Origin: an uncultured virus (IMG/VR IMGVR_UViG_3300044949_002487)
Taxonomy: Duplodnaviria > Heunggongvirae > Uroviricota > Caudoviricetes
DNA: 64,000 nucleotides
IMG/VR virus record: IMGVR_UViG_3300044949_002487
Direction: 5' to 3' (one strand)
Each line of letters starts with the position of its first letter. The first letter of the stretch is position 1. Below, piece after piece: positions 951 through 52,650 of the stretch. The position numbers and the translations under genes were made by a program. Below the pieces are notes generated by a model. The model was not told where the DNA came from. It searched no databases and was given only the letters and a program-made list of their open reading frames with translations.

Positions 951-979
951 CCGTATTTCTCGCATGGACGCGAATTATC

Positions 980-1789
980 ATGGCAAGGATGCCATCAAAT
1001 CACGTTCTGCCGACCGGAGAAATTCTTCGGAAACTGTTCGCCTTCGGGTATTTCGGCACGAAAACCTGGGCGCAGGCACGGCAGCTTAAGGGCGCGGAGC
1101 TAACGCGCGCCATCCGCGAGTACCAGCGCTTTCATGGCCTGGATCCGGATGGCCGAGTCGACGAGACCACGGCGCACGTGCTTGAGCGTCGCCGCTGCGG
1201 TCTGCCCGACTTCAATTTTTCAGCGGGCGATCAGGTCTGCAAGTGGCCGCACAAGGCGATCACGTATCACCAGAAAATTGTGCTGCCTGGTATCAACGCC
1301 GAGCAAGCGAAGCAGGCGTTCGACATTGCTTTTGGCCAGTGGGCGCGTGTTTGCGACATTGAGCCGGAGTACGTCGAAGATCCCAAAAAGGCCAACATCT
1401 TGGCCCGTTCGGGCAAGGGTAAGAAGCAAGGCTTGGACGCGCGCGGCGGCACTCTGGCGTGGAGTGAGCTGCCCTGCGGCGTTCACGAAAACATCCAGCT
1501 CGACCAGATGTTTGACGAGGCGGAGGCCTGGAGCTTCAACATGGCCGTCGCTGTAATTTGCCACGAGCTGGGTCACGCGCTGGGCCTGCCGCATCTGGCC
1601 AACGGCAACCTGATGGCGCCTTACTACGACCCAAATGTTACGGAGCCCCAAGAAGGCGACATCCGCGAAATTCAGGATCTGTACGGCAAGCGCAAGGTGC
1701 CGTACTCCAGACTCAAGGACGCCTCGATCGAGCTGGGCGGCACGATTATGATCAACGGCAAGCCGTACGTTCTCGTACCAAAGACATAA
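980..1789 (+). CDS. Matrixin-family (M10, MMP-like) zinc metalloprotease with PG-binding-like pro-domain
   Basis: HELGHALGLPH (HExxHxxGxxH), Met-turn LMAP, cysteine-switch-like RRCGLPD, and N-terminal IREYQRFHGLDPDGRVD. Confidence 0.9.
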   Translation: MARMPSNHVLPTGEILRKLFAFGYFGTKTWAQARQLKGAELTRAIREYQRFHGLDPDGRVDETTAHVLERRRCGLPDFNFSAGDQVCKWPHKAITYHQKIVLPGINAEQAKQAFDIAFGQWARVCDIEPEYVEDPKKANILARSGKGKKQGLDARGGTLAWSELPCGVHENIQLDQMFDEAEAWSFNMAVAVICHELGHALGLPHLANGNLMAPYYDPNVTEPQEGDIREIQDLYGKRKVPYSRLKDASIELGGTIMINGKPYVLVPKT

Positions 1790-1836
1790 ACTTTTGCTAG
1801 ACTCTGTCCCCTACGGCAGATTTGTATGGAGACGCC

Positions 1837-2133
1837 ATGACTACCTTTCAATTGCTCGCGCTGTTGGTGTTCGCCGGTGTGGTCCTCGCGGCCTACGGCA
1901 AAGATATCTATGGCTGGGTTAAAACCCGCCTCCCCAAGCTCCCCGAGCCGGGTGTCAACCCCGCCAAGCCGGTGACGCCTGATGAGCCCACGGGCGACGT
2001 GCTGGTGGACGACCTGCTCGATATTGCCGCGCTGCGCGACCGGTTTGAGGACGAGGGTTGCACCGAGGGCGTCGAGGCCTGTTCGCTGCTGCTGAAGATT
2101 CTGATCGACCACAAGCATCCGCACGCGGGGTGA
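1837..2133 (+). CDS. Small membrane-anchored protein
   Basis: GGAG RBS; N-terminal TM FQLLALLVFAGVVLAAY. Confidence 0.7.
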   Translation: MTTFQLLALLVFAGVVLAAYGKDIYGWVKTRLPKLPEPGVNPAKPVTPDEPTGDVLVDDLLDIAALRDRFEDEGCTEGVEACSLLLKILIDHKHPHAG

Positions 2134-2138
2134 CCACT

Positions 2139-2648: not shown

Positions 2649-2789
2649 CAAAACGAGGCCGACATGACAGCGCTTGTCGTTATATTTGTACTGTACGCAT
2701 GCGCGATTGTGCTCGCGTTGTGGTTGACAGGCGTCAATAACGTTTTGACGCCAAAAAGATTGAGAGTCTCGCAAATCGGGAGAGATGTT

Positions 2790-3185
2790 ATGGCAGATGT
2801 GCTTGTGTATAAGGTGTCCGTCGGCCCCGCGGTCGACAAGGACGTCGTGGAGCGGCAGCTGCTTGTTGCCGTCAATGGCGCCGAGCCGGTTGACGCCGCT
2901 AAGGTGTTTTCGGCCGACGCTACGGATCTCGGCGAAGTCCGCGTGAAGCAGGACGACAAGGTCCTCCTCACGCTGGTCGACGTCGACGACGCTGGCAATC
3001 GCTCGGAGCCCGCGGTGCTCGAGTTCGTGGCCAGCGACACGCTGCCCCCGGCGCAGCCCGGCGCGTTCGGCGTGACGCTTGTGGCCGAGGTCGAGGAAGA
3101 GGTCGAGGTCGAAGAGGACGAGGGTGAAGAGCCCGCCGCCCCCGAGACCCCGGTTGAGCCGGAAGCCCCGGCTGACGAGGCCTGA
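2790..3185 (+). CDS. Beta-rich (Ig/FN3-like) protein with acidic tail; alternative start at 2664
   Basis: GGGAGAG RBS before ATG 2790; DDAGNRSEP motif typical of FN3/Ig-like strands; EEEVEVEEDEGEE tail. Confidence 0.55.
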   Translation: MADVLVYKVSVGPAVDKDVVERQLLVAVNGAEPVDAAKVFSADATDLGEVRVKQDDKVLLTLVDVDDAGNRSEPAVLEFVASDTLPPAQPGAFGVTLVAEVEEEVEVEEDEGEEPAAPETPVEPEAPADEA

Positions 3186-3203
3186 TAACACTGCGAGGTT
3201 GCC

Positions 3204-4229
3204 ATGGACGGCGAAATTTTCTTTGATTCGGTTTTCGACGTACAGAAGGCCTACGAAGAGGGTTTCGTCGGCGCGTTGTGCGACCCTGAGCGTACTGACA
3301 TGCTCAAGGCCGCCATCGCGGAGGCAGGTGGCATTCCCGAAGGCGCGATGGCCTGTTCGGCCTACGGCCTCGAGGAAACTGGCAAAGGAAAGCTCAGCGC
3401 TCCGTTCCTGGATGTTTTTTCGCTCTACCCGGACTGCCTCCCGGGTGGAGCCCAGGGGCGGGGCGACTGTGTTTCGTGGTCAACCCGGAACGCCGGGTTG
3501 GTCACGATGTGTACCGACATTACCAGCGGACTGGCCGACGAGGAGACTGGTAACGTCGAGGGCGCGCCGGAGATCTCCGACAAGGCGCGACTTAACGGCG
3601 TGCTTAGTACTGAAGCGATTTACAATTGGCGTCGGCATGGCGGGGACGGCTGGTTCTGTTCTGACGCCGCCCGCGTCGTCATGAAGGAGTCGGGTCTCTG
3701 GCTCCGCAAAGCGTATCCCGAGATCAAGGTCGACTTCGAGCAGTATTCTGCTCGCGCGGCTGGAATCTACGGCTCTTCGACGCCGCCTAAGTCGTGGCTC
3801 GAGATTGGCCAGCAGCACCTGATTCGTACGACGACTGTTCTGAACAGTTACGAAGAGCTGCGGGACATGCTCGCCAATGGTTATGGCGTTAGTTCCTGCG
3901 GCGGCGAATCCTTCTCGGACCAGCGCGATAGTAACGGCGTCTCAAAGCGCACCGCAAAGGGCTGGGCGCACGCGATGGCCTATATCGCGGCCGATGAGCG
4001 CCCCGAGATTATCGACGTTTACAAAGAACCCCTGATCTGCGTCCAAAACAGCTGGGGAAATTGGAATGATGGAAGTCGCAAGATCATGGACACGAACTTC
4101 CAGATTCCAATTGGTGCTTTCTGGGCGCGTTGGAGCGACCTAAAGAACCGCGACATGATCGCCTTTTCCAGTTTCAACGGCTGGAAGCGAAAGGCGCTGC
4201 GCAGCTGGGGCGCGCTGGGCAACATTTAA
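3204..4229 (+). CDS. Papain-like (C1-family) cysteine peptidase
   Basis: Catalytic motifs QGRGDCVSW (Gln/Cys), GWAHAM (His) and VQNSWG (Asn). Confidence 0.8.
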   Translation: MDGEIFFDSVFDVQKAYEEGFVGALCDPERTDMLKAAIAEAGGIPEGAMACSAYGLEETGKGKLSAPFLDVFSLYPDCLPGGAQGRGDCVSWSTRNAGLVTMCTDITSGLADEETGNVEGAPEISDKARLNGVLSTEAIYNWRRHGGDGWFCSDAARVVMKESGLWLRKAYPEIKVDFEQYSARAAGIYGSSTPPKSWLEIGQQHLIRTTTVLNSYEELRDMLANGYGVSSCGGESFSDQRDSNGVSKRTAKGWAHAMAYIAADERPEIIDVYKEPLICVQNSWGNWNDGSRKIMDTNFQIPIGAFWARWSDLKNRDMIAFSSFNGWKRKALRSWGALGNI

Positions 4230-4252
4230 CTCTGGGTCCGGGAGACGTTAAC

Positions 4253-5571: not shown

Positions 5572-5589
5572 CACTGAAGGAGCAGTGCG

Positions 5590-6760: not shown

Positions 6761-9700
6761 ATGCCAGACTCGATCCTCGGGCAGACACCGCCGCAACAGC
6801 GCGCATTTGGTGACATCAACGCGCTCCGGTCGAGCATCTTCGACCGAGCTATGCAGAGCGCGTCGTCGATCGAGCCGATTAAGAACGACCTCTACACGCT
6901 CCAACTCGGAGACGTGAAGTACACGGGCGCCGAGCGCTTCAACAAGCGCGACCAGAAGCGGGCCATTCTCACTGGCAACTCGCTCCACCGGCGGCTCACG
7001 GGCACCTGGAACCTGATCGACAACGCCACCGGGCAGCCGATCGCCAGCCGTCAGCAGACGATTGCCCACGTGCCGTACCTCACCGACTCCGGCACGTTTG
7101 TGAACCGGGGCGTCGAGTACACCCTGGCGCACCAGATGCGGCTTAAGGCTGGCGTCTACACACGCGAGAAAGACAACGGCGAGCTGGAGGCGCACGTCAA
7201 CGTGCTGCCCGGCAAGGGCCGTATGCACCGGTACTTCCTCGACCCGAAGACCGGCGTGATGAAGATCAATATCGGACAGGCCCAGATTCCGCTGATGCCG
7301 CTGCTCAAAGCGCTCGGCGCCAAAGACGCCGACATCCGCGGCGCCTGGGGAAACGAGATCACTGCCGTCAACATGGAAAAAGGCGACGCTGGCACGCTCG
7401 ACAAGCTGTATCAGCGCTTGGTCTACAAGCAGACCCCGGGCTTGGATGCCGCCGCTAAGCAGCAGGCGATTGCAGCCGAGTTTGCCCGGATGGAACTCGA
7501 TCCTGACGTTACGCGACGCACGCTGGGGAAGGAATACAAAAACCTGACCCCCGACGCAATTCTTGACATCACAAAAAAGCTTATCGCCGTTAATCGCAAA
7601 GAGTCCGACCCGGACGACCGCGACTCGATGGCCTACCAATCTGTCGTCGGGCCTGAAGACCTGATCGCCGAACGGTTTAGCAAAGACAAGCAAAGCCTGC
7701 GCAAGCTGCTCTGGAAAGCGACCGCCAAAAAGAGCCTTGATCACGTCCCGACTGGTTTCTTTAACAAGTCGATCACGGCGGCTTTGATCGGCTCTGGTCT
7801 GGGTTCCAGCCTGGAAGAAATCAACCCGGCCGAGATCTTTGACCATCAGAACCGCGTGACCCGGATGGGTGAGGGCGGCATCGGCTCGCTCGACGCCGTT
7901 CCTGTGGAGTCTCGCGCTGTGCAGCCCAGCCACCTCGGCTACATCGACTTCTTGCGCACTCCTGAATCTGGCAAGGCGGGCGTTGATATGCGCTTCGCGC
8001 GTGGCGCCGTAAAAGGCGCCGACGGCAAGATTTATACGCCTGTGCGCAACATGCAGACCGGCGAGCAGGAGTACAAGACCCCCGGCGAGCTGGCCGAAAT
8101 GCCTGTGGCGTTTCCTGGCGAGGAAAAGACAAACCTACCGATGGTGGCGGCGCTCGTGAGCGGCAAGATGAAGTACATGCCGCGCGAGGAGGTTCAATAC
8201 TCGCTGCCCCATATGGACAACACGTTCTCGGCGCTTTCGAACATGCTCCCTCTGAAGAGCATGATCAAAGGTCAGCGTGCGATCATGGGTAGCCGCATGT
8301 TCACCCAAGCGCTACCACTCAACGACGCTGAATCGCCGTTCGTACAGTCCGCTGTGGTTGACAAAGACGGGATCTCTCACGAAGACGAGATGGGCGAGCG
8401 ACTCGGCGCTGTGAAGGCGCAATTTCATGGCCAGGTCGTCTCTGTCTCTCCTGATGAGATCGTGCTGCGCGACAAGGATGGCAACAAATCGACCGTCGAT
8501 CTGTACAACGATCACCCGTTCAACCGGAAGACGTTCTGGCACCAGACGCCAGCTGTGCAGCCCGGCGAAACGATCAAGCCGGGGCAGCTTCTCGCTCACT
8601 CAAACTTCACTGACAAGCAGGGCTCGGCGGCGCTCGGCAAAAACCTCCGCGTGGGCTATCTCCCATTTAAGGGCCGAGTCTACGAAGACGCCGTGGTGAT
8701 CAGCGAGTCGGCGGCCAAAAAGCTCACCAGCCAGCACATGTACCAGCATGAAGCTGAGTGGACCGACAACACGCACGTCGGCAAGAAGGCGTTCATGTCG
8801 CTCTTTCCGACCGAGTACGACAAGAAGACGCTGGAGAACTTCGACGACAAGGGCGCCATTCAAAAGGGCGCGGTCGTGAACTTCGGCGATCCGCTTGTGC
8901 TGCAGGCCAAAGCCAAAGAGACGACCTATGGTAAGGTGCACCGCGGGCGAGCTGGTAACTTCTCAAACGAGACAATTACCTGGGACCACCACTCGCCGGG
9001 CATCGTCACGGACGTCGAGCACACTGACAAGGGCGTCTCGGTCGTGGTGAAGAGCACCGCGGAAATGCAGGTGGGCGACAAGCTCACTGGACGTTTCGGC
9101 GACAAGGGCGTGGTGTCCGAGATCGTTCCAGACCACCAGATGCCGCACGATAAAGACGGCAACCCGATGGAGGTCTTGGTTTCGCCGCTGGGGCTTATCT
9201 CCCGCGTGAACGCCTCCCAGGTCATCGAAGCCGCGCTGGGCAAGGTCGCCGCGAAGACCGGGCAGCCGTTCAAGATGAAAGACTTCGACGACGAGAAGGA
9301 CATTGTTGAGTTTGCGCAAAACGAGCTTGGGAAGCACGGCCTCTCTGATACTGAGGACGTTATTGATCCGGAGACCGGTCGTAAGATCAAGGGCGTGCTG
9401 ACCGGCCACCGGTTCTTTATGAAGCTCCACCATACGTCGGAGTCCAAGGGGCAGGGTCGCGCGATGGGCAGCTACACCGCCGAGGGCACTCCGGCGAAGG
9501 GCGGCTCAGAAGGCGCCAAGCGCGTCGGCATGCTGGACCTGGGCGCACTGCTTAGTCACGGCGCCGGAAAGGTCATCCGCGACGCGAAGATGGTCCGCGG
9601 CCAGGCGAACCCCGAGTACTGGTCGCAGTTCATGTCGGGTTACACCCCGCCGCTTCCCAAAGTCCCCCACGTTTACGAGAAGTTCGTGGACCAGCTGCGT

Positions 9701-11131: not shown

Positions 11132-11144
11132 CACGGAGGTTTCC

Positions 11145-13993: not shown

Positions 13994-14074
13994 TTCTGTA
14001 GGATGTAAGAGCTGCGACACGGTAAATTGTTGCTTACACGTGTCTTAGAATTGTGCCGCACGGAGGTGGCTACT

Positions 14075-23302: not shown

Positions 23303-23323
23303 ATCACACGGAGGTTTGAAACC

Positions 23324-23749: not shown

Positions 23750-23797
23750 TTTCAAACGGATTTGTGATAACCACGAAAAAGACATGGAGGTCTTAAC

Positions 23798-24346
23798 ATG
23801 GCAACTGCTCCCAATCTGATCACTGAGAAGGGGCTCGACGTCAAAAAGGGCTGGTTCCAGATGGCCGCCCTCGACTACGACGCCAAGCTCGCTTCGGCTG
23901 TCTCCTTCGACGTTCCGCGCGGTCGCGTGGTCCACGTTGACTCGGACGGCAACTTCCGCCCTGGTGCGCACAACACCGGCGTTGCGATCTTCCTGCTCAA
24001 CGGCTCGGCCGAAGCGGACGTCAGCAACCCCGGCACCACGGCTTCTGGCAACTTCATGCACCGGGCCATCGCCCCGACCGGCAAGATGTCCGGCCTCGTG
24101 GCGACGGGTGGTTACGAGATCGCGTCGACCGAGTTCGACTCGTCCCGCAGCTACGCCCCGGGTGATCTGCTCACCGCGACGGCGTCGAACTCGAACGCCA
24201 CGACCGGCGGTCGGATCACGAATGAGTCGGTCGAGCAGTTTGTGACGCCGGTGGTCGGTGTCGTGTCGTCCGGTAAGGCCAAGAACCACAACGGGGTCTA
24301 CGCGCTGTCCTTCTGGACGGTGTGGCTCCCGGGCGAGGCCGCCTGA
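23798..24346 (+). CDS. Putative capsid decoration/cement protein
   Basis: Immediately upstream of the MCP; YAPGDLLT…VVGVVS pattern of beta-tulip decoration proteins. Confidence 0.6.
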   Translation: MATAPNLITEKGLDVKKGWFQMAALDYDAKLASAVSFDVPRGRVVHVDSDGNFRPGAHNTGVAIFLLNGSAEADVSNPGTTASGNFMHRAIAPTGKMSGLVATGGYEIASTEFDSSRSYAPGDLLTATASNSNATTGGRITNESVEQFVTPVVGVVSSGKAKNHNGVYALSFWTVWLPGEAA

Positions 24347-24366: not shown

Positions 24367-24382
24367 GGAACATGGAGGTTCC
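24367..24382 (+). promoter_or_regulatory. ANGGAN-hexaloop hairpin over the MCP RBS (CsrA/RsmA-type site; representative of about 18 copies)
   Basis: GGAAC-ATGGAG-GTTCC; the other copies are listed in the findings. Confidence 0.65.
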
Positions 24383-24386: not shown

Positions 24387-25313
24387 ATGCCCACTCAGCA
24401 AGAAATCCAGCTGCTCAACGAGACCCTCTTCGAGCAGCTCGACACCCCCGGCATGCAGAAGCAGGCCGTGGACGCGGTTAACGACTTCACGCGTACCAAG
24501 ATGCGTGAAGACGGGTTCTACCGGCGGATTATGCCGCCGCTGACCATCACCAACGACGAGCTTGACCGTCAGGTTGACACTGACAAGCCCGTCAAGGTTG
24601 TGGACAAGGAACCCGATTCCCCGGCGGCTGTGTCGCTTCCGTTCGCGACGCTCCCGATCAACTTCTACATCCGTGGCCCGCGCTACCGCGTCATGTTTGA
24701 CCGGATCGTGTCGCCCCGCGCTGTGAAGGACGTCGACGAGCTGCGCACCTACGTGATCGACATCCGGCAGGTTCTCTCGGACAACATGATCAAGGACATG
24801 CTGGCCGAGGAAGACTCGAAGTTCATCGCTGCCCTCGACGCCGTCCTCCCGACTCCGGGTGTGGCGAACGTCGCGTCGGACACGGTGCAGTACGAGGAAA
24901 TCCACGGCGGCATCACGCGTGAGACGATTGTCGACGCGCTGAAGGTCATGCCGCGGACGCCCTCGCACTTCGAGGTCGAGACCTGCCTGGTGAACAACAT
25001 CACCATCAAGGAGCTGCTGAAGTTCGGCCGCGACGAGATGGGTGGTGACTTCTCGCAGGACATCATCAAGAACGGTTGGGCGGAGACCAACTTCCTCAAC
25101 TGCCGCTGGATCGTCACGATCAAGCGGAACCTCGTTCCGGACGACACGATGTACATGTTCGCGTCGCCCAAGTTCATCGGCAAGAACTACGAGCTGGAGC
25201 CCACCACGATGTACATCCGTCGTGAGGCCTACATGCTCGAGTACTTTGCCTACAACACGCAGGGTGGCTCGTTCGGTCACACGAACGGCCTCGCCCGCGT
25301 CGATTTCAAGTGA
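24387..25313 (+). CDS. Major capsid protein (HK97-fold, inferred)
   Basis: 308 aa, extreme codon bias, strong RBS, followed by a stable hairpin; MREDGFYRRIMPP N-arm; synteny after protease, scaffold and decoration. Confidence 0.8.
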   Translation: MPTQQEIQLLNETLFEQLDTPGMQKQAVDAVNDFTRTKMREDGFYRRIMPPLTITNDELDRQVDTDKPVKVVDKEPDSPAAVSLPFATLPINFYIRGPRYRVMFDRIVSPRAVKDVDELRTYVIDIRQVLSDNMIKDMLAEEDSKFIAALDAVLPTPGVANVASDTVQYEEIHGGITRETIVDALKVMPRTPSHFEVETCLVNNITIKELLKFGRDEMGGDFSQDIIKNGWAETNFLNCRWIVTIKRNLVPDDTMYMFASPKFIGKNYELEPTTMYIRREAYMLEYFAYNTQGGSFGHTNGLARVDFK

Positions 25314-30425: not shown

Positions 30426-30532
30426 GGAAATTCACACACCGTCGTGAAAAGGTGTTTTTTTGACCTGCTGGGGTCCGTTATACTGAGCCTCAGCCGCACC
30501 ATATCACGACATTAGGCACGGAGGCCTGACGC

Positions 30533-33367
30533 ATGTCGAGCTACGTTAAACCACAAGTTCTCGTTTTCCAGGAATTCTCGATCGTCCCCACGGAGATCAC
30601 TGAGCCGCTGCGCGCTCACGTCTCCGGCCCGCACGCGGTTCTCCACCGCCACGGCGACGCTGACGAGAAGCCGTTCTGCCGCCTGGGCGCTTACGACTAT
30701 CTGAATGACACGTGCTACCCGTGGCCGCAGCGGCTGCCGGGCTCGAACGTCGACGAGACGTACACCAAGCTGTACATCGACGACGCGCTGCTCCTGTTCT
30801 ATGAGCACATTCTCGGCGACACGTCGACCACGATCACCGCGGTCTCCGGTCGCACGAACTGGATCCAGTCCAGCGACCTGTCTTTCAAGAGCAACGGCGC
30901 GGCTTACCCGCGCAGCTCCATCTTCAACGATCGCGACGTTCAGTTGGGCGACGTGGTCTACCTCCGCGCTGTCGACACCGAGAGCTGCGAGGAGAAGGAG
31001 CTGTGGACGAGCGTCACTGGCTTTGCCAGCGAGCTGGTCGCGTCGCAGATCGAGGACGCCGCGGCGGACGACGATAACCAGGACACGATCGCGTCGACGA
31101 CCGCCACGATCACGAAGATCGGCGGTCCCGATAACTGCATCGTAGCCACGGTCGACGCGAGCGAATACGACGGCCTGGTCGACGGCGACGTCGAGGAAGA
31201 GTACACGATCGAGGTCATCAAGAGTTCCGTGGTCGGCTGCAACGCCGCGCGCCTGCGCGTCCGTTCGGCCAGTGGTAACGACGACGTGATTGAGGTTACG
31301 CCGGAAGACTGGGGCACGCCGACTGTAATCGGTAGCCGCGGCCTGGAGGTGACGTTCGACTACGATCCGGACGCGGGTTGCTCGGCGTCGGCCGAAGAAG
31401 ACGCCGTCGATCCAGACGTGCTGGTCACCGGCCAGAAGTGGCGGGTGGTTGTTAGCCAGGCGTTTGACAAGGTCGAAGCGACCTCGGGCGGCGACGGTTA
31501 CGACGGCGACAAGAACGACGTCTACATCGTCGAGTGCACTAAGGGCGGCCTGTTCGACATCAGCAGCGAGACCGGCTTCCCGGAGATCACCGTTCGCACG
31601 GTGAAGGGCCTCGATTACTCGGGTCCGACCGAGATCGTTGATCACAACGTCGCTGTGGCCATCGGCTCCAACGGCGTGACGATCAAGTTCCACGGCGAAG
31701 ACGAAGGCGACGCTGTCGACGGTCTGCGCAAGGGCGACCGGTGGTACATCAACGTGGAGTCGAGCAAGGCGGGCCCTGTCCGTCGCCTGATTCTCCGCGA
31801 CGACCTGCCCACCGAGATCGTCGACGCCGCTGACGTCGAGATGCGGCTCTTCATCAAGGACAACATCCAGGTGTCCGAGAACCGCGTCGGTTTCGCTCCC
31901 CTCAAGAACTACGCCCAGGAAGCCACGCAGGTCTGCGTGCACGAGGGCATCGTCGCCTACCACCCCGAGTGGACGGACGGCGGCGTCGAGCAGCCGCTCG
32001 ATGTTCGTGGCGGCACGCTGTACGTCGAGTACCGCGAGTGGCTCAGCGAGCTGGCCGACGAGGTCAACAGCGTGCAGAGCGTGGCCGAGCTGGACAAGAT
32101 CAAGGGGCAGCTCCACCCAGATAACCCGCTGAAGTGGGGCGTCTACAAGGCGCTCTCCAACAGCAACGGCACCGTGGTGAAGTACACGGCTGTGACCGAG
32201 CCTGCGGACCTCGATAGCTGGGTCCAGGTGCTCGAGCGGATTAAGGGTCGGGACGACATGTATAACCTCGTCCCGCTGACCTACGACACGCGCGTTCACA
32301 ACCTGTACGCGGCCCACATCGGCGGTGAGTCCAACGAGTACGCCAACAACTGGAAGGCTGGCTTCTTCGCCCTGCAGGCGGTGACCAGCAAGCTCCTCGT
32401 TGGCGAGGGTGCGCGGATCACCGGCGTGGCTGGCCTGACCATGCCTGAGCCGGTGCTGGCTACCCTCAGCGACGACCCGAACGCTACCAACACGCAGTAC
32501 ACGCTGCTGCAGGTGTCGGCAGGTTCCGGTTACTTCATCACCAATGAAGTGCAGCCGGGTGACCTTGTCCGCTACCTGTACACGGTGGACGGCTTCGGCG
32601 AAGAGCAGTACCAGGAGTTCGTGGTGGACCAGGTCCTCTCGGAAAACTCTCTGCTGCTGTTCTCGGGCGCTGACGCCCCGGTCACGGTCGCGCAGCGGGT
32701 TGAGATTCATCACAACCTCAACCGCAACGAGATCGCCGACGATATCGCCGAGCGCGCTGGTGCGCTCTCGAATCGCCGGGTCTGCGCTGTGTGGCCCGAT
32801 CAGGTTGGCGAAGCTGGCACGCTCATGGCGGGGTACTTCCTCGCCGCGGCGCTGGCCGGTCTCGCCTCTGGCGTGGTCCCGCAGCAGGGTCTGACGAACG
32901 TCGAGGTCGCCGGTTTCGACGACTTCACGCGGTCCTACAAGTACTTCAACGAGACGCAGCTGAATCGGATGGCTGAGGCGGGGGTGTGGATCGTGACCGA
33001 AGATCGCGACGGCACGCCGCACACGCGGCACGCGCTGACGACGGACAACCTCGACCTGAACCGTCGGGAAGAGATGATCCGCCGCAACGTGGACTCGATT
33101 TCTTACCTGTTCCTCCGTCGGCTCCGTCCGTACATCGGCCGGACCAACGCGACTCCGACGATGGTGCGGAAGCTGGAGTATGAGGTCACGAAGATCATCG
33201 ACTTCTTCAAGACCAACGGTAACACCCTTGAGCTTGGCTCGCAGCTGATCGACGGAACGATCCGCACCCTGCGGATCCACCCGCTGCTGCGCGACCGGAT
33301 CGAGATCGTTCTCGACCTGGTTGTCCCGGCCCCGCTCAATAACATCGAGCTTCACCTGGTCGTCTGA
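30533..33367 (+). CDS. Contractile tail sheath protein
   Basis: N-terminal YVKPQVLVFQEF; C-terminal REEMIRRNVD…IEIVLDLVVPAPLNNIELHLVV; 944 aa; precedes a tube-sized gene. Confidence 0.85.
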   Translation: MSSYVKPQVLVFQEFSIVPTEITEPLRAHVSGPHAVLHRHGDADEKPFCRLGAYDYLNDTCYPWPQRLPGSNVDETYTKLYIDDALLLFYEHILGDTSTTITAVSGRTNWIQSSDLSFKSNGAAYPRSSIFNDRDVQLGDVVYLRAVDTESCEEKELWTSVTGFASELVASQIEDAAADDDNQDTIASTTATITKIGGPDNCIVATVDASEYDGLVDGDVEEEYTIEVIKSSVVGCNAARLRVRSASGNDDVIEVTPEDWGTPTVIGSRGLEVTFDYDPDAGCSASAEEDAVDPDVLVTGQKWRVVVSQAFDKVEATSGGDGYDGDKNDVYIVECTKGGLFDISSETGFPEITVRTVKGLDYSGPTEIVDHNVAVAIGSNGVTIKFHGEDEGDAVDGLRKGDRWYINVESSKAGPVRRLILRDDLPTEIVDAADVEMRLFIKDNIQVSENRVGFAPLKNYAQEATQVCVHEGIVAYHPEWTDGGVEQPLDVRGGTLYVEYREWLSELADEVNSVQSVAELDKIKGQLHPDNPLKWGVYKALSNSNGTVVKYTAVTEPADLDSWVQVLERIKGRDDMYNLVPLTYDTRVHNLYAAHIGGESNEYANNWKAGFFALQAVTSKLLVGEGARITGVAGLTMPEPVLATLSDDPNATNTQYTLLQVSAGSGYFITNEVQPGDLVRYLYTVDGFGEEQYQEFVVDQVLSENSLLLFSGADAPVTVAQRVEIHHNLNRNEIADDIAERAGALSNRRVCAVWPDQVGEAGTLMAGYFLAAALAGLASGVVPQQGLTNVEVAGFDDFTRSYKYFNETQLNRMAEAGVWIVTEDRDGTPHTRHALTTDNLDLNRREEMIRRNVDSISYLFLRRLRPYIGRTNATPTMVRKLEYEVTKIIDFFKTNGNTLELGSQLIDGTIRTLRIHPLLRDRIEIVLDLVVPAPLNNIELHLVV

Positions 33368-37871: not shown

Positions 37872-38261
37872 ATGGTGCGGGCCGCCGCATCGGGAGCGAT
37901 CGATTACTCCCGAGCCGATCCCAAAGATATCTATTGGAGAATTCGACACCGCCTGACCATCAAGGAGATGCAGCGGAGAAATGACGAGGAGCTGTTCCAG
38001 GCCGTCCACCGGCACTGGCTCGCCTTTATCGCCCACGGCCGTCTTACCGAGGAAAGTTACGACGACGTCAGAAAGCGCGTGGACGATGCTCTTTTGAGTT
38101 TGCAGGGCGTTATTTACCCGTGGGTCGAAGTTAACAAACCCGAGGCCGGAGACGAGGGGCAAAAAGATACAATAAAGCCAGAAACACGCGACTTGCTTGA
38201 GCGATACAAGCGTGCGCAAGAACGGCTGCAGCAATTGCGCGAAGAACAGGGACGTTCATGA
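37872..38261 (+). CDS. Second tail chaperone segment (possibly reached by -1 frameshift)
   Basis: The -1 frame is open across the upstream stop; ATG lacks an RBS; overlaps the TMP start. Confidence 0.55.
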   Translation: MVRAAASGAIDYSRADPKDIYWRIRHRLTIKEMQRRNDEELFQAVHRHWLAFIAHGRLTEESYDDVRKRVDDALLSLQGVIYPWVEVNKPEAGDEGQKDTIKPETRDLLERYKRAQERLQQLREEQGRS

Positions 38262-45076: not shown

Positions 45077-45889
45077 ATGCCCAAAGACAAACTTAACGGT
45101 ATGCCCTCTATCCTGGGCGACATCGACCCGCCGTTCTCTAAGCCGAAAAACCCGACCGGCGTGGGCGAAGAGTTCAACTCGGTCTACCAACAGTGGCAGA
45201 CGACTCGCACGCCGGAGGTGAACACGCGCCTGCTCTCAACCGTGCAGCCGGTCATCGACACGGCTGTGTCTAGCTACGCCGCGAACAATCCCAGTCCGAC
45301 GATCAAAACCCGCGCCAGGTTAATGGCTCTGAAGGCCATGGAGTCGTACGACCCCAAGAAGGGAAACGTGCGGACGCACCTGCTCAGCCAGCTCCAGAGC
45401 CTGCGCCGCCTGTCGGCCCAGGAACAAAACATTATCTCGGTGCCTGAACAAGTGGGCCTTGATTTCCAGCGATTGTCGGAAAGCGAGAACGAGCTGCGCG
45501 ACCGCCTGGGCCGCGACCCAACAGACGACGAGCTGTCTGATCACACAAATCTCTCGACTCGACGAATCAAGAAGATCCGCGCGTTCCACCAGCCCATCCC
45601 CGAGAGCGCCACAATCCTCGAGAACGACGATGAGAGCCAGGACGGCGGCGTGGCAAGCACGATCCCCGGCGCCAACCGCGGCGCTGACGCCTGGATGAAC
45701 TTTGTTTACGACGATCTCGGCCCGACCGACAAGCTCATCATGGACATGACCCTGGGCCGCAACGGCCGCCGGACGGCCAGCACTCAGGAGATTGCCAAGA
45801 AACTGAACATTACGCCGGGCGCCGTCAGCCAGCGCGCCGCCAAAATTCAGGTCATGCTCGACAAGCGCTACAGCCAGGGAGGCTTCTAA
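45077..45889 (+). CDS. Sigma70-family RNA polymerase sigma factor (regions 2-3-4)
   Basis: LKAMESYDPKKG (2.2-2.3), LGRDPTDDELS (3), STQEIAKKLNITPGAVSQ (4.2 HTH). Confidence 0.88.
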   Translation: MPKDKLNGMPSILGDIDPPFSKPKNPTGVGEEFNSVYQQWQTTRTPEVNTRLLSTVQPVIDTAVSSYAANNPSPTIKTRARLMALKAMESYDPKKGNVRTHLLSQLQSLRRLSAQEQNIISVPEQVGLDFQRLSESENELRDRLGRDPTDDELSDHTNLSTRRIKKIRAFHQPIPESATILENDDESQDGGVASTIPGANRGADAWMNFVYDDLGPTDKLIMDMTLGRNGRRTASTQEIAKKLNITPGAVSQRAAKIQVMLDKRYSQGGF

Positions 45890-50073: not shown

Positions 50074-50082
50074 GGAAGCATC

Positions 50083-50709
50083 ATGGCCAGCGATAAGATC
50101 GGCATTAACGGTTCGGGCGTGCGCGGCCGGGTCACTATTTGGCGCGTCGAGCCGTCCGGGCTCATGACTCCGCTCCACACCCAGCGCAACCAGATCCAGT
50201 TCTCCTGGGGCCACATTGCCGCCCGGCAAATCGGCTACCGTTACCAGGCTGGCCGCCCCAGCTACCACGTCTCGGGGATGTACATCGAGTACGAGAATGT
50301 CCCCAATCCAGAAGACCCGATCAGCGTCTCCGCCTTCGACCGGGAACTCGGCGTCGACTATTACAACGGCCTGGCCCTGAGCGCCACGCAGGACTTCCTG
50401 CGGGTCGAGCAGCGCGTCGAGCCGAACCTGAGCATCTCGACAGGCTACGAGGATTACTTCGTGGCGAACGAGAGCGGCAACCAGCTCACGTTCTTCGCGC
50501 AGACCGCAGGCGTCGAGGGCGTTCATGGCAAGGACTTCAGCAGCGGAGTGAACAGCAAGGTTTACGCCGCGGCACTGGTGGCCACGCCGGAGTTCAGCGA
50601 CCGCACAAAGGACGTCATCTTTGCGCGCACAACGTTCGCCGTCGAAAACCAGGTCACCAAGGAAGCCTCGTCGCAAATCGGCATCACTTGGGACATCGCA
50701 TTTGAATAA
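50083..50709 (+). CDS. Baseplate/tail-fibre attachment protein
   Basis: C-terminal IFART…VTKEASSQIGITWDIAF resembles collar/fibre-base domains. Confidence 0.5.
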   Translation: MASDKIGINGSGVRGRVTIWRVEPSGLMTPLHTQRNQIQFSWGHIAARQIGYRYQAGRPSYHVSGMYIEYENVPNPEDPISVSAFDRELGVDYYNGLALSATQDFLRVEQRVEPNLSISTGYEDYFVANESGNQLTFFAQTAGVEGVHGKDFSSGVNSKVYAAALVATPEFSDRTKDVIFARTTFAVENQVTKEASSQIGITWDIAFE

Positions 50710-50751
50710 CGGCTAACTCACACGGATGTGTGAAAGCCTTGGAGGACACGG

Positions 50752-52650
50752 ATGTCCAATAACTGGCTGAACAATATCAAGCACGTTACCCCCGGCGAGC
50801 CCGTGCAGGCGGGTGTCGTGAGCCGTCCCGACCGGGCGCTCGTGGACCGGACTGAATATCTCAAGCAGCGGCTCGACGCCGCGGCGCTGGGACAGGCCAT
50901 CTTCGATATCGACGCTACGATCGCTCCGGACGTGCTCCCCGGACAGCCGGTCTACTGGAACGCCACGGCGCAGCGCTACGAGCGCGCCCTCGCCGCCGTC
51001 GATACCGACCAGACGACCCAGACCCTCGTCACGCTGCCCTCGAGCGACGTCCTGGGCCTGTGCTACAAGAAGAAGAACGCCACGCTCGCTGACGTCGTTC
51101 TTCATGGCGTCGTGCGGCTGCCCGAGATCACCAACGCCGTAACGGCGCCGGTCGCGGCGGGTCGGTACTATCTCTCCGCTGTAGAGCCCGGCAAGCTCGT
51201 CCGGCAGCGTCCGCCTGTCTCGGTGAGCGTGTGCTACGTCCAGGGCGTCAAGGACAACTGCGCCGACGAGCCGTGGGTCGTCGTGATGCCGCAGCTGCGC
51301 AGCTTTCTGGATGACCACATTCACTACCGTTTTGAACTGACCGCGCTGCCTGCGGGCGACCACGACCCGGAAGCCGCCGCCCTGGCGGGCGTGCACACGG
51401 TTGACAACGCCGACGCCACGCAAGAAGGCTGGCTCCCGGCCGATCACACGGTGTTCGACGGTCGAGCACCGGTGGGCGCGAAGTTCGGTTACAACTTCTC
51501 GCAGCACGAGGCGATCTCGCTCGTCTGGCCGCCCATGCCGCTCCAGGCTGTGGCCGTGCTGTGGGACAAAGGTATCAACAACGTCGGCGCCACGGAGATC
51601 CCGCTGGGCTCCGACGGCCTGTGCATCTGCGACGCCAACGGCATCTGGTGGATGAGCGACTGCTACGGCGACGTTCCGTGGCCCGCTGATCTCGACACTT
51701 CCAGTAGCGAATCGCTCAGCTCGCTCGCCGCCTGCCCGCGCGAAGAGCGGATGCGCGTGATCGTTGTCTACCTGCGTATGCTCTTCGGCAACGACCGCTC
51801 AGTGGTCACCAGCCTCAAGCCCGCGGTGGACAGCCCGATCACGATCGCTAACTGCGACGGGACGCTGGCAACCCAAGAGCAGCCGCTGACGGGCGACCTG
51901 GAGCTGGGACTAAACCTGGCGCTGGTCGACGACCCGACTGAGGTTGTGGGAAGCCGAGTCTACAAGCAGATCACCACGGACTTTAAGTTTCGCAAAGGCT
52001 GGATTGCCGAAGGCGTCCGTGTCGGCGCGGGTCCGCTTGTAATCACGGGCACACGCAGCCGCACGCTTACGACTGCAGAAAAGACGGCGCTGGACCTGCC
52101 CTCGGACGACGCGACGCTGCTGCATCAGGGTCTAGTCACGATCTCCTACGATGACCAGCTCGTGGAGCGTGAGATTTCGCCGCAGATTATTCGGCTCTCC
52201 GACACGGTTGAGCGACTGTACCTCGACATTCCCTACCTGGGTTTTCCGCAGGGCCAGGACTCTCTGGTGCGTGTCCGGCTCAACGTGCCCGGCGCCAACC
52301 TCGGCAGCAGCCTGGAGATGCGCGTCCGCGTGCAGCTCTTCGGTCGCACGTCCGCCGTGCTGCCCGAGATGACCATGTCGTACCGGCAGCTCCCGCGGCC
52401 TGCAGGTACGGTCACTGTCGGCATGCCCACGCTGCCGGGCCTGGGCGACGAGATCAGCCTGGCCTTCGATCTGCCGACTGCGTCCCTCGCTCTCGATACG
52501 CCGATCGAGGTTTCCAGCGAAGCGTTTGCCGTGACCGAGGGCGACACGATTCTTGTGACGCTCGCCCGCGCCGGAAGCGCTGATAGCTACGCGGGCGAGA
52601 TTGGACTGCTGCGCTTGTCGGGCGTCATTACCGTTCCGGGTGCTGAATAA
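50752..52650 (+). CDS. Tail fibre/baseplate protein
   Basis: N-terminal GEPVQAGVVSRPDRALVDRTEYLKQRL is typical of fibre attachment segments; beta-tulip-like GQPVYW…YYLS. Confidence 0.6.
   Translation: MSNNWLNNIKHVTPGEPVQAGVVSRPDRALVDRTEYLKQRLDAAALGQAIFDIDATIAPDVLPGQPVYWNATAQRYERALAAVDTDQTTQTLVTLPSSDVLGLCYKKKNATLADVVLHGVVRLPEITNAVTAPVAAGRYYLSAVEPGKLVRQRPPVSVSVCYVQGVKDNCADEPWVVVMPQLRSFLDDHIHYRFELTALPAGDHDPEAAALAGVHTVDNADATQEGWLPADHTVFDGRAPVGAKFGYNFSQHEAISLVWPPMPLQAVAVLWDKGINNVGATEIPLGSDGLCICDANGIWWMSDCYGDVPWPADLDTSSSESLSSLAACPREERMRVIVVYLRMLFGNDRSVVTSLKPAVDSPITIANCDGTLATQEQPLTGDLELGLNLALVDDPTEVVGSRVYKQITTDFKFRKGWIAEGVRVGAGPLVITGTRSRTLTTAEKTALDLPSDDATLLHQGLVTISYDDQLVEREISPQIIRLSDTVERLYLDIPYLGFPQGQDSLVRVRLNVPGANLGSSLEMRVRVQLFGRTSAVLPEMTMSYRQLPRPAGTVTVGMPTLPGLGDEISLAFDLPTASLALDTPIEVSSEAFAVTEGDTILVTLARAGSADSYAGEIGLLRLSGVITVPGAE

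What the first reader, a model, noticed from the sequence alone, without database searches (positions are those of the whole stretch)
960..50757. Window-wide set of ANGGAN-loop hairpins over translation starts: a candidate CsrA/RsmA-type regulon for virion genes
SEEN: short hairpins with unrelated stems but a conserved ANGGA(N) loop sit on the RBS or start codon of many genes. They are TCGC-ATGGAC-GCGA (960) and ATGGC-AAGGAT-GCCAT (980, matrixin), TGT-ATGGAG-ACG (1823), TTGCC-ATGGAC-GGCGA (3199, start codon in loop), CACTG-AAGGAG-CAGTG (5572), AAC-ACGGAG-GTT (11130), GCCGC-ACGGAG-GTGGC (14055), GC-ACGGAT-GC (21995), AC-ACGGAG-GT (23306), CAA-ACGGAT-TTG (23753) and AAGAC-ATGGAG-GTCTT (23779), GGAAC-ATGGAG-GTTCC (24367, MCP), TTAC-ATGGA-GTAA (26346), TTAGGC-ACGGAG-GCCTGA (30512, sheath), GAAC-AGGGAC-GTTC (38244, TMP), AGCC-AGGGA-GGCT (45872), and CAC-ACGGAT-GTG (50719) with GGAC-ACGGAT-GTCC (50744). 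Stems vary while pairing is kept. Several loops (GGAC, GGAT) are not Shine-Dalgarno sequences, and some genes carry two sites. KNOWN: CsrA/RsmA/RsmE dimers bind (A/U)CANGGANG(U/A) with ANGGAN in a hexaloop, often at paired sites, and block translation. INFERENCE: a host- or phage-encoded CsrA-like protein times translation of late genes. No csrA gene is visible in this window.
Basis: partly seen in the sequence, partly recalled or inferred. Interest (0 to 1): 0.85.

Follow-up and report, generated by a model that had tools for sequence, protein, structure and literature searches.

The report
Phage CsrA hairpins on virion mRNAs
An uncultured jumbo phage of about 200 kb folds the ribosome-binding sites of its capsid, capsid-surface and tail-sheath genes into small conserved RNA hairpins shaped like the docking site of the bacterial translation regulator CsrA, and it carries its own csrA gene just outside this window, so it probably controls synthesis of its own particle proteins this way, although binding has not been tested.

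Summary
All 18 sites exist. About 9 are solid hairpins, 3 are intermediate and 6 cannot be told from chance.

- **Enrichment:** a control that preserves the Shine-Dalgarno (SD) sequence finds xxGGAx-hexaloop hairpins with stems of 4 bp or more at 5 window starts, against 0.35 expected (0 of 5000 permutations reach this).
- **Conservation:** the capsid, probable capsid-decoration and sheath leaders keep the hairpin in 52 of 63, 51 of 60 and 37 of 46 orthologs, with compensatory stem changes. Neighbouring genes do not keep it.
- **Site shape:** the first loop base is A in 78 of 85 hairpins but in only 149 of 352 stemless SD sites. This matches the published high-affinity CsrA/RsmE site, an ANGGAX hexaloop on a stem.
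- **The missing gene:** a contig 100% identical to window 40330-64000 encodes a 68-aa CsrA 3,962 nt past the window end.
- **Co-occurrence:** 6 of 6 csrA-positive relatives show the enrichment and 0 of 3 csrA-negative ones do. On the capsid tree this is a single evolutionary event.
- **Limits:** two unrelated csrA-positive phages lack such sites. No sponge RNA, FliW or RegB was found. Binding, direction and timing of control are untested.

The scan had already noted the same thing on relatives of this phage. I found no publication describing it.

The parts
960..973 (+). Hairpin TCGC-ATGGAC-GCGA, 14 nt upstream of the matrixin/PG-binding gene start (980)
   Evidence: 4 bp WC stem, dG -3.8, formed in the local MFE fold. 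Stem kept in G002 with the loop changed to AGGGAC.
980..995 (+). Hairpin ATGGC-AAGGAT-GCCAT, with the start codon of gene 980 in the 5' arm
   Evidence: 5 bp WC stem, dG -5.5, formed in the local MFE fold. The same sequence is present in G002.
3199..3214 (+). Hairpin TTGCC-ATGGAC-GGCGA, with the start codon of gene 3204 in the loop
   Evidence: 5 bp stem including G-U (3 WC), dG -5.0, formed in the local MFE fold. GCC-ATGGAC-GGC is kept in G002.
5572..5587 (+). Hairpin CACTG-AAGGAG-CAGTG over the SD of gene 5590 (118 aa)
   Evidence: 5 bp WC stem, dG -4.4, but the local MFE fold prefers another structure. ACTG-AAGGAG-CAGT is kept in G002. Intermediate.
14055..14070 (+). Hairpin GCCGC-ACGGAG-GTGGC over the SD of gene 14075 (791 aa)
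   Evidence: 5 bp stem with one G-U, dG -6.6; the local MFE fold prefers an alternative. Hairpin present in 8 of 8 orthologs found.
23779..23794 (+). Hairpin AAGAC-ATGGAG-GTCTT over the SD of g23798
   Evidence: 5 bp WC stem, dG -3.1. Kept in 51 of 60 orthologs with 17 distinct variants. Covariation score 0.401 vs 0.178 in shuffles (0 of 500 reach it), slid registers at most 0.174.
23798..24346 (+). g23798, 182 aa, probable capsid decoration/cement protein (a target gene)
   Evidence: AF2 model with mean pLDDT 85. The best Foldseek PDB matches are accessory chains of phage capsid reconstructions (8pkh, 9gb0_C, 9ocb_H, 5wk1_K, 6qyy_B), but the scores are weak: E 1.1e-3 or worse, TM 0.4-0.6.
24367..24382 (+). 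Hairpin GGAAC-ATGGAG-GTTCC over the SD of the major capsid protein gene
   Evidence: 5 bp WC stem, dG -4.8, and the only structure in the local MFE fold. Kept in 52 of 63 orthologs with 15 variants. Covariation score 0.356 vs 0.148 (0 of 500), slid registers at most 0.173.
24387..25313 (+). Major capsid protein gene (a target gene)
   Evidence: tblastn match to the annotated major capsid protein of Salmonella phage Arash, 28% identity, E 2e-23.
30512..30529 (+). Hairpin TTAGGC-ACGGAG-GCCTGA over the SD of the tail sheath gene
   Evidence: 6 bp stem (4 WC plus G-U), dG -6.6, formed in the local MFE fold. Kept in 37 of 46 orthologs with 16 variants. Covariation score 0.429 vs 0.196 (0 of 500), slid registers at most 0.206.
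30533..33367 (+). Tail sheath gene (a target gene)
   Evidence: PHROG tail sheath families phrog_279 and phrog_2839, E about 1e-7. Weak Pfam Phage_sheath_1 match.
38244..38257 (+).
   Evidence: 4 bp WC stem but dG only -1.6, and not formed in the local MFE fold. Not recovered at the G002 ortholog. Intermediate.
45872..45884 (+). Pentaloop hairpin AGCC-AGGGA-GGCT over the SD of gene 45892
   Evidence: 4 bp WC stem, dG -4.1, formed in the local MFE fold. G002 has AGCC-AAGGAG-GGTT at this position.
50718..50733 (+). Upstream hairpin of gene 50752: CAC-ACGGAT-GTG, or TCACAC-GGAT-GTGTGA in the MFE register
   Evidence: 3 bp in the hexaloop register (dG -0.4). The local MFE fold forms a 6 bp stem with a GGAU tetraloop.
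50744..50757 (+). Hairpin GGAC-ACGGAT-GTCC, with the start codon of gene 50752 in the loop and 3' arm and part of the SD (GGAGGA) in the 5' arm
   Evidence: 4 bp WC stem, dG -4.0, formed in the local MFE fold. Identical in G002. The ACGGAU loop is the same as that of the RsmE-bound hcnA RNA described in PMC4005645.
1823..1834 (+). Weak listed site TGT-ATGGAG-ACG (the other weak sites are 11130-11141, 21995-22004, 23306-23315, 23753-23764 and 26346-26358)
   Evidence: 2-3 bp stems with dG about 0 or positive, or not formed in the local MFE fold. Not distinguishable from chance. Hairpins are rare at their orthologs: g23324 5 of 50, g21992 8 of 52, g26362 5 of 46.

Best explanation
The hairpins are CsrA-type operator sites on the phage's own mRNAs. 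A subset of virion genes places the Shine-Dalgarno GGA, or in three cases the start codon, in an A-N-G-G-A-N hexaloop closed by a 4-6 bp stem of arbitrary sequence. The conserved members of this subset are the capsid protein, a probable capsid decoration protein and the tail sheath.

The phage encodes a 68-aa CsrA about 4 kb downstream of the window, on the same strand. I propose that a dimer of this protein binds the loops and blocks 30S binding, so that translation of the highest-copy particle proteins is held back or dosed. A host CsrA may bind the same sites where the host has one.

Shown here:
- The hairpins are real, enriched over SD-preserving controls, specific to this loop register, and covary.
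- They carry the loop A that SD function does not require.
- They are inherited together with csrA across a deep phage clade.

Inferred, not shown:
- That CsrA binds them.
- That binding represses rather than stabilises or activates.
- What relieves the control, and when.
For: 1. Enrichment over SD-preserving controls. Window: stems of 4 bp or more at 5 sites vs 0.35 expected, 0 of 5000 swaps reach it. Intergenic sites only: 5 vs 0.37.

2. Register. The hexaloop xxGGAx is the strongest register. [quoted passage not shown]

3. Loop base 1 is A in 78 of 85 intergenic hairpins (window plus 4 genomes) vs 149 of 352 stemless SD sites. The N position varies: T, C or G in alignments A1-A3.

4. Covariation in three leaders, each with 0 of 500 shuffles reaching the observed score and each higher than all slid registers. 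G-U pairs are tolerated, and the arms differ between genes, so this is an RNA structure and not a DNA operator.

5. Gene-specific retention: MCP 52 of 63, g23798 51 of 60, sheath 37 of 46, g14075 8 of 8. Neighbouring genes: g16460 0 of 39, g28221 0 of 51, g25802 1 of 58.

6. csrA in the same phage. G001 positions 2-23672 are 100% identical to window 40330-64000, and csrA lies at G001 27634-27840 on the + strand, 75.4 bits vs a Pfam cutoff of 27. A close homolog aligns over residues 1-47 to RsmE (2jpp), with Arg44 kept.

7. Whole-genome tests. All 6 csrA-positive relatives are enriched at stems of 4 bp or more: G002 7 vs 0.79, G004 7 vs 0.68, G006 13 vs 1.03, G008 27 vs 1.05, G007 8 vs 0.76, G013 9 vs 0.94. 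None of the 3 csrA-negative genomes is: G010 0 vs 0.98, G011 0 vs 0.92, G012 3 vs 0.79 with no loop starting with A.

8. csrA's own SD sits in such a hairpin in G008, G009 and G013.
Against: - No binding, toeprint, reporter or expression data exist.
- On the MCP tree the 10 csrA-positive genomes form one clade against the 3 csrA-negative ones (branch support 100/99). The co-occurrence is therefore one event and could reflect any other clade-specific trait, such as host or translation signals.
- Neither of 2 unrelated csrA-positive GenBank phages shows enrichment: phi297 3 vs 1.16 (p = 0.11) with 0 stems of 4 bp or more, and Vibrio phage 219E41.2 0 vs 0.55. Carrying csrA does not by itself predict such sites.
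- Nothing that could relieve repression was found. Rfam gave no family at gathering threshold in the window plus G001 20001-46243. FliW was absent from 5 of 5 phage records.
- Extra GGA sites within reach of a dimer are no more common at hairpin leaders than at other leaders (73% vs 70%).
- In this phage the csrA leader has two unstructured GGAs and no hairpin.
- The phage protein has Arg where RsmE has Gln29 (alignment). PMC4005645 describes Gln29 as a stem-contacting residue.
- An accessible SD in a loop on the most highly expressed genes is also what a translation-favouring or mRNA-stabilising element would look like.
Confidence: 0.62

Rival explanations
1. The sites are read by the host's CsrA rather than the phage's. 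The abundant late mRNAs either sense the host's Csr state or act as a sponge that titrates host CsrA. The phage CsrA would serve mainly to reprogram host genes, for example defence systems, as proposed in the literature.
For: Published proposals for phage and plasmid CsrA homologs concern host manipulation (PMC8450108 and PMC9928087; passages and abstract seen). Campa et al. report a correlation between phage and host csrA presence. The site shape fits bacterial CsrA/RsmE equally well. The csrA leader in this phage lacks a hairpin.
Against: The hairpins and the phage csrA persist together across phage genomes of 54-69% GC, which probably means different hosts. That fits a cis/trans pair carried by the phage better than dependence on one host factor. 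Two other csrA-positive phages with CsrA-bearing hosts (Pseudomonas, Vibrio) have no such sites. The host of this phage is unknown.
Confidence: 0.15
2. The hairpins have nothing to do with CsrA. They are small structures that keep the SD single-stranded in a loop, or protect the mRNA, and so favour expression of high-copy genes in GC-rich transcripts. The phage csrA is a coincidental passenger of the same clade.
For: The best-conserved sites sit on the capsid, probable decoration and sheath genes. GGAG is exposed in the loop. The csrA association is one evolutionary event. No antagonist was found.
Against: This does not explain the preference for exactly a six-base loop. It does not explain the loop A two bases before GGA when the next base is C or T and cannot pair with the anti-SD (78 of 85 vs 149 of 352). 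It does not explain why csrA-negative relatives, which also need abundant capsid protein, lack the hairpin. And at 980, 3199 and 50744 the start codon or SD is placed in the stem or loop, which would hinder initiation rather than help it.
Confidence: 0.17
3. The loops are recognised by a different RNA-binding protein or nuclease. One example is a RegB-like endoribonuclease, which I recall cuts GGAG in Shine-Dalgarno sequences. Another is an unknown phage translational repressor.
For: GGAG is the commonest loop core. Most phage proteins here have no known family.
Against: No RegB (PF10715) match in 5 of 5 phage records or among the 60 window proteins. The site shape matches CsrA in detail, and a CsrA gene is present.
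Confidence: 0.04
4. The inverted repeats act at the DNA level, as operators or promoter elements for a dimeric DNA-binding protein, or they are chance matches.
For: They are short inverted repeats near gene starts. A sigma-like gene lies in the block at 45077-45889.
Against: The arms differ completely between genes while the loop is conserved. G-T 'pairs' are tolerated. The motif is strand-specific. Permutation tests exclude chance for the set, though not for the six weak sites.
Confidence: 0.02

Closest known systems
RsmE/CsrA repression at SD stem-loops of bacterial mRNAs (RsmE-hcnA complex, PDB 2jpp; ANGGAX-hexaloop rule of Duss et al. 2014, PMC4005645)
   Same: A six-base loop A-N-G-G-A-X directly on a short stem, overlapping the ribosome-binding site. 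The loop ACGGAU of hcnA recurs at 50724 and 50750. The trans factor is a 68-aa PF02599 protein alignable over residues 1-47 with RsmE, with Arg44 kept.
   Different: Both the sites and the CsrA gene are carried by a phage. The targets are its own virion genes, not host metabolism or virulence genes. Most leaders have one strong site rather than several GGA sites. The phage protein has Arg at the position of RsmE Gln29. Binding is untested.
Phage- and plasmid-encoded CsrA/Rsm homologs (Sobrero & Valverde 2020, PMC7366521; Campa et al. 2021, PMC8450108; plasmid RsmQ, PMC9928087; PTXU04 gp28 in CRISPRi-ART, PMC11879866)
   Same: A mobile element carries its own CsrA family protein.
   Different: Those reports propose manipulation of host genes. 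PMC11879866 states that the role in the phage life cycle had not been tested before its knock-down. None of the passages I read describes CsrA-type sites on the element's own structural genes. Two such phages tested here (phi297 and Vibrio phage 219E41.2) have no SD-hairpin enrichment.
Flagellin-FliW-CsrA partner switch of Bacillus and other bacteria (recalled; named in earlier scan notes e1-2404820 and e1-975675)
   Same: CsrA acts on an SD-loop hairpin of the mRNA for a very high-copy structural protein that self-assembles.
   Different: No FliW homolog in 5 of 5 phage records. No evidence of any assembly-linked antagonist. The targets are phage capsid and tail proteins.
Phage translational repressors acting on RBS hairpins (MS2/PP7 coat protein on the replicase operator, T4 RegA; recalled, not tested)
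   Same: A phage protein that shuts translation of the phage's own genes by binding RNA at the ribosome site.
   Different: An unrelated protein family. Here a bacterial global regulator appears to have been co-opted, and many genes carry the operator.

Membership tests
CsrA/RsmA protein family (Pfam PF02599), for the trans factor | Profile match above the curated cutoff | tested here: met
   G001, the same phage, scores 75.4 bits against a cutoff of 27. Matches were found in 12 of 20 related records searched, and in 9 of the 12 that are at least 90% complete.
CsrA/RsmA protein family (Pfam PF02599), for the trans factor | Small size (about 60-70 aa) and end-to-end alignment with solved CsrA/RsmE, including Arg44 | tested here: met
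   The ORF is 68 aa. The G002 homolog aligns over residues 1-47 to 2jpp, 5dmb, 1t3o and 1y00 at E 2e-9 to 2e-8, with R44 kept and H43 replaced by V. Position 29 is Arg, not Gln.
CsrA/RsmA protein family (Pfam PF02599), for the trans factor | Homodimer that binds GGA-containing RNA | not testable with these tools
   No protein-RNA prediction or assay is available. A dimer prediction was not run because it would pass by likeness to solved structures.
High-affinity CsrA/RsmE RNA site (ANGGAX hexaloop on a stem; PMC4005645) | GGA unpaired in a six-base loop closed directly by a stem | tested here: met
   The hexaloop register is enriched: window 5 vs 0.35 at stems of 4 bp or more. 9 of the 18 listed sites form it in the local MFE fold.
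High-affinity CsrA/RsmE RNA site (ANGGAX hexaloop on a stem; PMC4005645) | A at loop position 1, variable N at position 2 | tested here: met
   A in 78 of 85 hairpins vs 149 of 352 stemless sites. Column 9 is A in at least 90% of rows and column 10 varies in alignments A1-A3.
High-affinity CsrA/RsmE RNA site (ANGGAX hexaloop on a stem; PMC4005645) | Overlap with the SD or start codon of the regulated gene | tested here: met
   At the SD-type sites the first G of GGA lies 8-14 nt before the start codon. The start codon lies inside the hairpin at 980, 3199 and 50744.
High-affinity CsrA/RsmE RNA site (ANGGAX hexaloop on a stem; PMC4005645) | Structure maintained by selection (covariation) | tested here: met
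   Three leaders, each with 0 of 500 shuffles reaching the observed covariation score and each above all slid registers.
High-affinity CsrA/RsmE RNA site (ANGGAX hexaloop on a stem; PMC4005645) | Two or more GGA sites per target within reach of one dimer (typical of bacterial targets; recalled) | tested here: not met
   At least one extra GGA nearby in 73% of hairpin leaders vs 70% of other leaders. Upstream mean 0.92 vs 0.75 (p = 0.03), downstream 0.34 vs 0.50. Only three window genes have paired sites.
High-affinity CsrA/RsmE RNA site (ANGGAX hexaloop on a stem; PMC4005645) | Measured binding by a CsrA protein | not testable with these tools
   Needs EMSA, ITC or CLIP.
Complete Csr/Rsm circuit with an antagonist (CsrB/RsmX/Y/Z sponge RNA, or FliW) | A sponge sRNA with many GGA loops, or a FliW protein, encoded alongside | tested here: not met
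   Rfam at gathering threshold: 0 matches in the window plus G001 20001-46243. The rest of the genome was not searched with Rfam. FliW PF02623: 0 of 5 records. Two ANGGA-dense intergenic stretches in relatives were folded: one is no better than shuffles (z = -0.31) and the other is a long leader (z = -2.84).
T4 RegB-type endoribonuclease system | A RegB (PF10715) homolog encoded by the phage | tested here: not met
   0 of 5 phage records. None among the 60 window proteins.

The most novel reading that the evidence does not exclude
The phage has turned CsrA into a dosage and assembly controller for its own particle. CsrA holds back translation of the capsid, decoration and sheath mRNAs and is released either by titration through the rising tide of these same late mRNAs or by an unrecognised phage antagonist. 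This would be a phage counterpart of the flagellin-FliW-CsrA homeostasis loop, setting the timing and stoichiometry of the highest-copy virion proteins. In lineages where csrA's own SD carries the hairpin, the loop would also autoregulate.
Probability: 0.18. Interest if true: 0.85.

Novelty: new variant of a known kind. Interest (0 to 1): 0.7.

Why it matters
Phage-encoded CsrA homologs have been catalogued since 2020, but their function is open. The papers I read propose host manipulation, and the 2025 CRISPRi-ART paper says the role in the phage life cycle had not been tested before.

This phage group offers a concrete and testable answer. It has a defined set of 16-20-nt RNA operators on named phage genes, with natural compensatory variants, a cognate 68-aa protein, and close relatives that lack both.

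If confirmed, three things would follow:
- A bacterial global regulator has been co-opted as a phage-internal translational regulator of virion proteins.
- Post-transcriptional control would be added to what is known of jumbo-phage gene expression.
- It would provide a compact orthogonal repressor/operator pair.

If refuted, the hairpins would still be a conserved class of RBS structure on high-copy phage genes that needs an explanation.

Tried and rejected
- Whole genome of the window: none is held (error). I used G001, an overlapping contig identical to the window's right part, and relatives instead.
- GenBank phages: no close relative by megablast. Only matches of about 28% aa identity, so depositors' annotation could not be used for this phage.
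- CsrA inside the window: none by Pfam on 60 ORFs or by six-frame tblastn (best E = 0.028).
- Sponge RNAs: Rfam found nothing in the 90 kb searched. Two ANGGA-dense intergenic stretches in relatives were not convincing as sponges.
- FliW and RegB: absent.
- Generalisation to other csrA-positive phages: negative in 2 of 2. One search failed on an assertion about non-canonical annotated start codons and was rerun.
- Second GGA sites as a hallmark: not enriched.
- Public RNA runs: no RNA holder listed, so nothing can be said about expression or transcript ends.
- Terminator reading: rejected by inspection, since the stems are 4-6 bp and no T-run follows them.
- DNA-operator reading: rejected because the arms differ between genes and G-T pairs are tolerated.
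- Host identification was not attempted beyond noting that no names are attached to the homologs.
- I did not run a CsrA dimer prediction, which would pass by likeness to solved structures and would not bear on RNA binding.

Full report
**What the window is.** The window is 61% GC, with essentially all genes on the + strand. It encodes:
- phiKZ-type multisubunit RNA-polymerase beta/beta'-like proteins (6761-11131, 12113-13993);
- a matrixin with a peptidoglycan-binding domain (980-1789);
- a sigma-like protein (45077-45889);
- a major capsid protein (24387-25313), 28% identical to that of Salmonella phage Arash;
- a tail sheath (30533-33367);
- a collagen-like fibre (58524-61223);
- a GT9 heptosyltransferase (62040-63953).

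IMG/VR holds 66 related loci with capsid identity of 55-99%, on contigs of about 200 kb. This is the virion block of an uncultured jumbo phage.

A scan that needs no gene calls found that 14 of 905 plus-strand GGA sites have a Watson-Crick stem of 4 bp or more closing an xxGGAx hexaloop. Other loop registers give 2-10, and the minus strand gives 6 of 756. Eight of the 14 sit at gene starts and six are inside genes.

Many loops contain the SD core, so the test that matters must preserve the SD. I kept each start-proximal GGA hexamer and its 3' flank and permuted the 5' flanks among sites.
- Window, 42 sites: stems of 3 bp or more, 7 observed vs 1.20 expected. Stems of 4 bp or more, 5 vs 0.35. 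In both cases 0 of 5000 permutations reach the observed count.
- The hexaloop is the strongest register. The pentaloop xxGGA (4 vs 0.83 at 3 bp or more, p = 0.007) and xxxGGAx (4 vs 0.60, p = 0.001) are weaker. Four other registers are not significant.
- Restricting to sites that lie wholly in intergenic spacers gives 5 vs 0.37.
- My automatic gene set missed gene 5590 and ignores sites at or after the start codon, so these counts are conservative.

Site by site, nine are solid, three are intermediate and six are 2-3 bp stems with dG near or above zero. The phenomenon is real, but a third of the list is padding.

**Conservation and covariation.** In the 66 loci I located orthologs of 20 window genes and looked for the hexaloop hairpin, allowing G-U pairs and requiring stems of 3 bp or more.
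- Kept: g23798 51 of 60, capsid gene 52 of 63, sheath gene 37 of 46, g14075 8 of 8. The first three have 15-17 distinct stem/loop variants each.
- Rare at other genes: g16460 0 of 39, g28221 0 of 51, g25802 1 of 58, g16858 1 of 49, g25385 2 of 49, g20486 4 of 60, g18175 5 of 59, g23324 5 of 50, g26362 5 of 46, g21992 8 of 52.

I then made fixed-register alignments anchored on the GGA and dropped orthologs with no GGA at -24..-4 (4 for the capsid gene, 0 for g23798, 7 for the sheath). The helix closing the loop shows the following:

| Leader | Covariation score | Shuffle mean | Best slid register | Shuffles reaching the score |
|---|---|---|---|---|
| Capsid | 0.356 | 0.148 | 0.173 | 0 of 500 |
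| g23798 | 0.401 | 0.178 | 0.174 | 0 of 500 |
| Sheath | 0.429 | 0.196 | 0.206 | 0 of 500 |

The measures that count pairs or pair types were not significant: for example, 428 of 500 shuffles reached the number of pairs with a double change in the capsid alignment. The tool warns that related sequences can beat shuffles without any structure. The slid-register control, which keeps relatedness, is therefore the more telling one, and it is clear in all three.

G-U pairs occur, and the arms differ completely between genes. This is an RNA structure, not a DNA operator.

**Site anatomy.** Duss et al. 2014 (PMC4005645; passages read) define the high-affinity CsrA/RsmE site as a hexaloop ANGGAX directly on a stem. 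They describe the RsmE-bound hcnA RNA as having an ACGGAU loop, which is the loop found at 50724 and 50750.

The first loop base is not needed for SD pairing when the next base is C or T. It is nevertheless A in 78 of 85 intergenic hairpins (window plus G002, G004, G006 and G008), against 149 of 352 stemless start-proximal GGA sites. In the three alignments that column is A in at least 90% of rows, while the N column varies.

**The csrA gene.** The window has none, either by Pfam on 60 ORFs or by six-frame tblastn. However, G001 is a 46-kb contig whose positions 2-23672 are 100.000% identical to window 40330-64000. It carries a PF02599 match of 75.4 bits (cutoff 27) at 27634-27840 on the + strand, which is 3,962 nt past the window end.

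The protein is 68 aa. Its G002 homolog aligns over residues 1-47 with RsmE (2jpp) and other solved CsrAs at E of about 1e-9 to 1e-8. Arg44 is kept, and Arg replaces RsmE's Gln29.

Of 20 related records searched, 12 have csrA. Among those at least 90% complete, 9 of 12 do. The five other records without a match are fragments (42-82% complete).

**Association with csrA.** I ran the same flank-swap on whole genomes, using my own gene calls and 3000 permutations. Counts are for stems of 4 bp or more:

| Genome | csrA | Observed | Expected |
|---|---|---|---|
| G002 | yes | 7 | 0.79 |
| G004 | yes | 7 | 0.68 |
| G006 | yes | 13 | 1.03 |
| G007 | yes (weak match) | 8 | 0.76 |
| G008 | yes | 27 | 1.05 |
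| G013 | yes (two copies) | 9 | 0.94 |
| G010 | no | 0 | 0.98 |
| G011 | no | 0 | 0.92 |
| G012 | no | 3 | 0.79 |

For all six csrA-positive genomes, 0 of 3000 permutations reach the observed count. For G012, p = 0.045, and none of its hairpin loops begins with A.

The capsid leaders of the three csrA-negative genomes also lack the hairpin (L059, L060, L063).

On a capsid-protein tree the ten csrA-positive genomes form one clade against the three csrA-negative ones (branch support 100/99). The association therefore rests on a single gain or loss. What it does show is joint retention of csrA and the hairpin set across two deep subclades and 54-69% GC.

In G008, G009 and G013 the csrA gene's own SD lies in an AAGGAG hexaloop hairpin. 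In this phage and its close kin it does not.

**Tests that went against, or did not help, the CsrA reading.**
- Two unrelated csrA-positive GenBank phages, scored with the depositors' annotated starts, show no enrichment. phi297 gives 3 vs 1.16 at stems of 3 bp or more and none at 4 bp or more. Vibrio phage 219E41.2 (first 50 kb) gives 0 vs 0.55.
- Rfam finds no sponge RNA in the 90 kb searched.
- FliW and RegB are absent from five phage records.
- Extra GGA sites near hairpins are not enriched.
- No RNA run was listed.

**Targets.** g23798 gives a confident model (pLDDT 85). Its best PDB matches are accessory chains of phage capsid reconstructions, but the scores are weak (E 1.1e-3 or worse, TM 0.4-0.6). 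I call it a probable decoration or cement protein.

The conserved core of the set is thus capsid, capsid surface and sheath. In this window the set also includes the matrixin gene (two hairpins), g3204, g5590, g14075, g38258, g45892 and g50752.

**Interpretation.** The best-supported reading (0.62) is that these are operators for the phage's own CsrA, possibly shared with a host CsrA, which block ribosome access and so dose or delay translation of high-copy virion proteins. The hairpins, their selection, their CsrA-like anatomy and their co-inheritance with csrA are shown. Binding, direction, timing and relief are inferred.

Rivals:
- The sites are read by host CsrA only, or the late mRNAs act as a sponge (0.15).
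- An SD-presenting or mRNA-stabilising structure unrelated to CsrA (0.17).
- Another RNA-binding protein or nuclease (0.04).
- DNA-level elements or chance (0.02).

**What is known.** Phage CsrA homologs are in print (PMC7366521 and PMC8450108, passages). They are discussed as host manipulators. PMC11879866 (passages) reports a knock-down phenotype for one and says the role had not been tested before.

Four full-text searches found no paper describing CsrA-type sites on a phage's own structural genes. The library lacks most subscription journals, and I read no supplements.

Within this scan, earlier unchecked notes on relatives of this phage reached the same reading (e1-5391205, e1-5856816, e1-6078758, e1-5403810), and similar notes exist for unrelated phages (e1-6106936, e1-5964473, e1-5734176). 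The scan has therefore seen this before on other DNA. My tests here were run independently of those notes.

Noticed in passing
L083/L086/L088 (G008:C1 about 11292-11729, minus strand): In relative G008 the CsrA match lies in a 163-184-aa open frame with two to three CsrA-domain matches (74.4, 44.5 and 9.1 bits), so it looks like a fused tandem CsrA. G008 also has the largest hairpin set (27 with stems of 4 bp or more).
   Followed up: partly
L132:9256-9612 (+) in G008: A 344-nt intergenic leader with 8 ANGGA motifs (mostly ACGGA) that ends in the SD hairpin GAGTC-ACGGAG-GACTC of the gene at 9600. It folds better than shuffles (z = -2.84). It could be a multi-site CsrA leader or a sponge-like RNA, and it lies about 2 kb from csrA.
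   Followed up: partly
L089 and L090 (G013): Relative G013 carries two separate csrA genes (78.9 and 72.5 bits), far apart in the genome.
   Followed up: no
window 6761-11131 and 12113-13993; 45077-45889: Large RNA-polymerase beta/beta'-like genes and a sigma-70 region 3/4-like gene are embedded in the virion block. The first protein carries both Rpb2 and Rpb1 domains in a single 1456-aa polypeptide.
   Followed up: no
window 2834-2847 and 9757-9770: The identical 14-mer hairpin CGAC-AAGGAC-GTCG occurs twice inside coding sequence, in two different genes. It is probably chance or a shared peptide, and it is not near a start codon.
   Followed up: no
window 59517-61117: The collagen-like fibre gene (58524-61223) contains internal DNA repeats 75-85% identical to each other, seen as off-diagonal BLAST hits against G001.
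   Followed up: no
window 62040-63953: The phage encodes a 637-aa protein with a GT9 heptosyltransferase domain (E = 6.8e-13), which suggests a Gram-negative host with an LPS core. The host was not identified.
   Followed up: no
G002 whole genome (L072-L082): 205 of 212 called genes lie on one strand. An earlier scan note (e1-5827686) discusses the few reverse-strand genes of this phage family.
   Followed up: no
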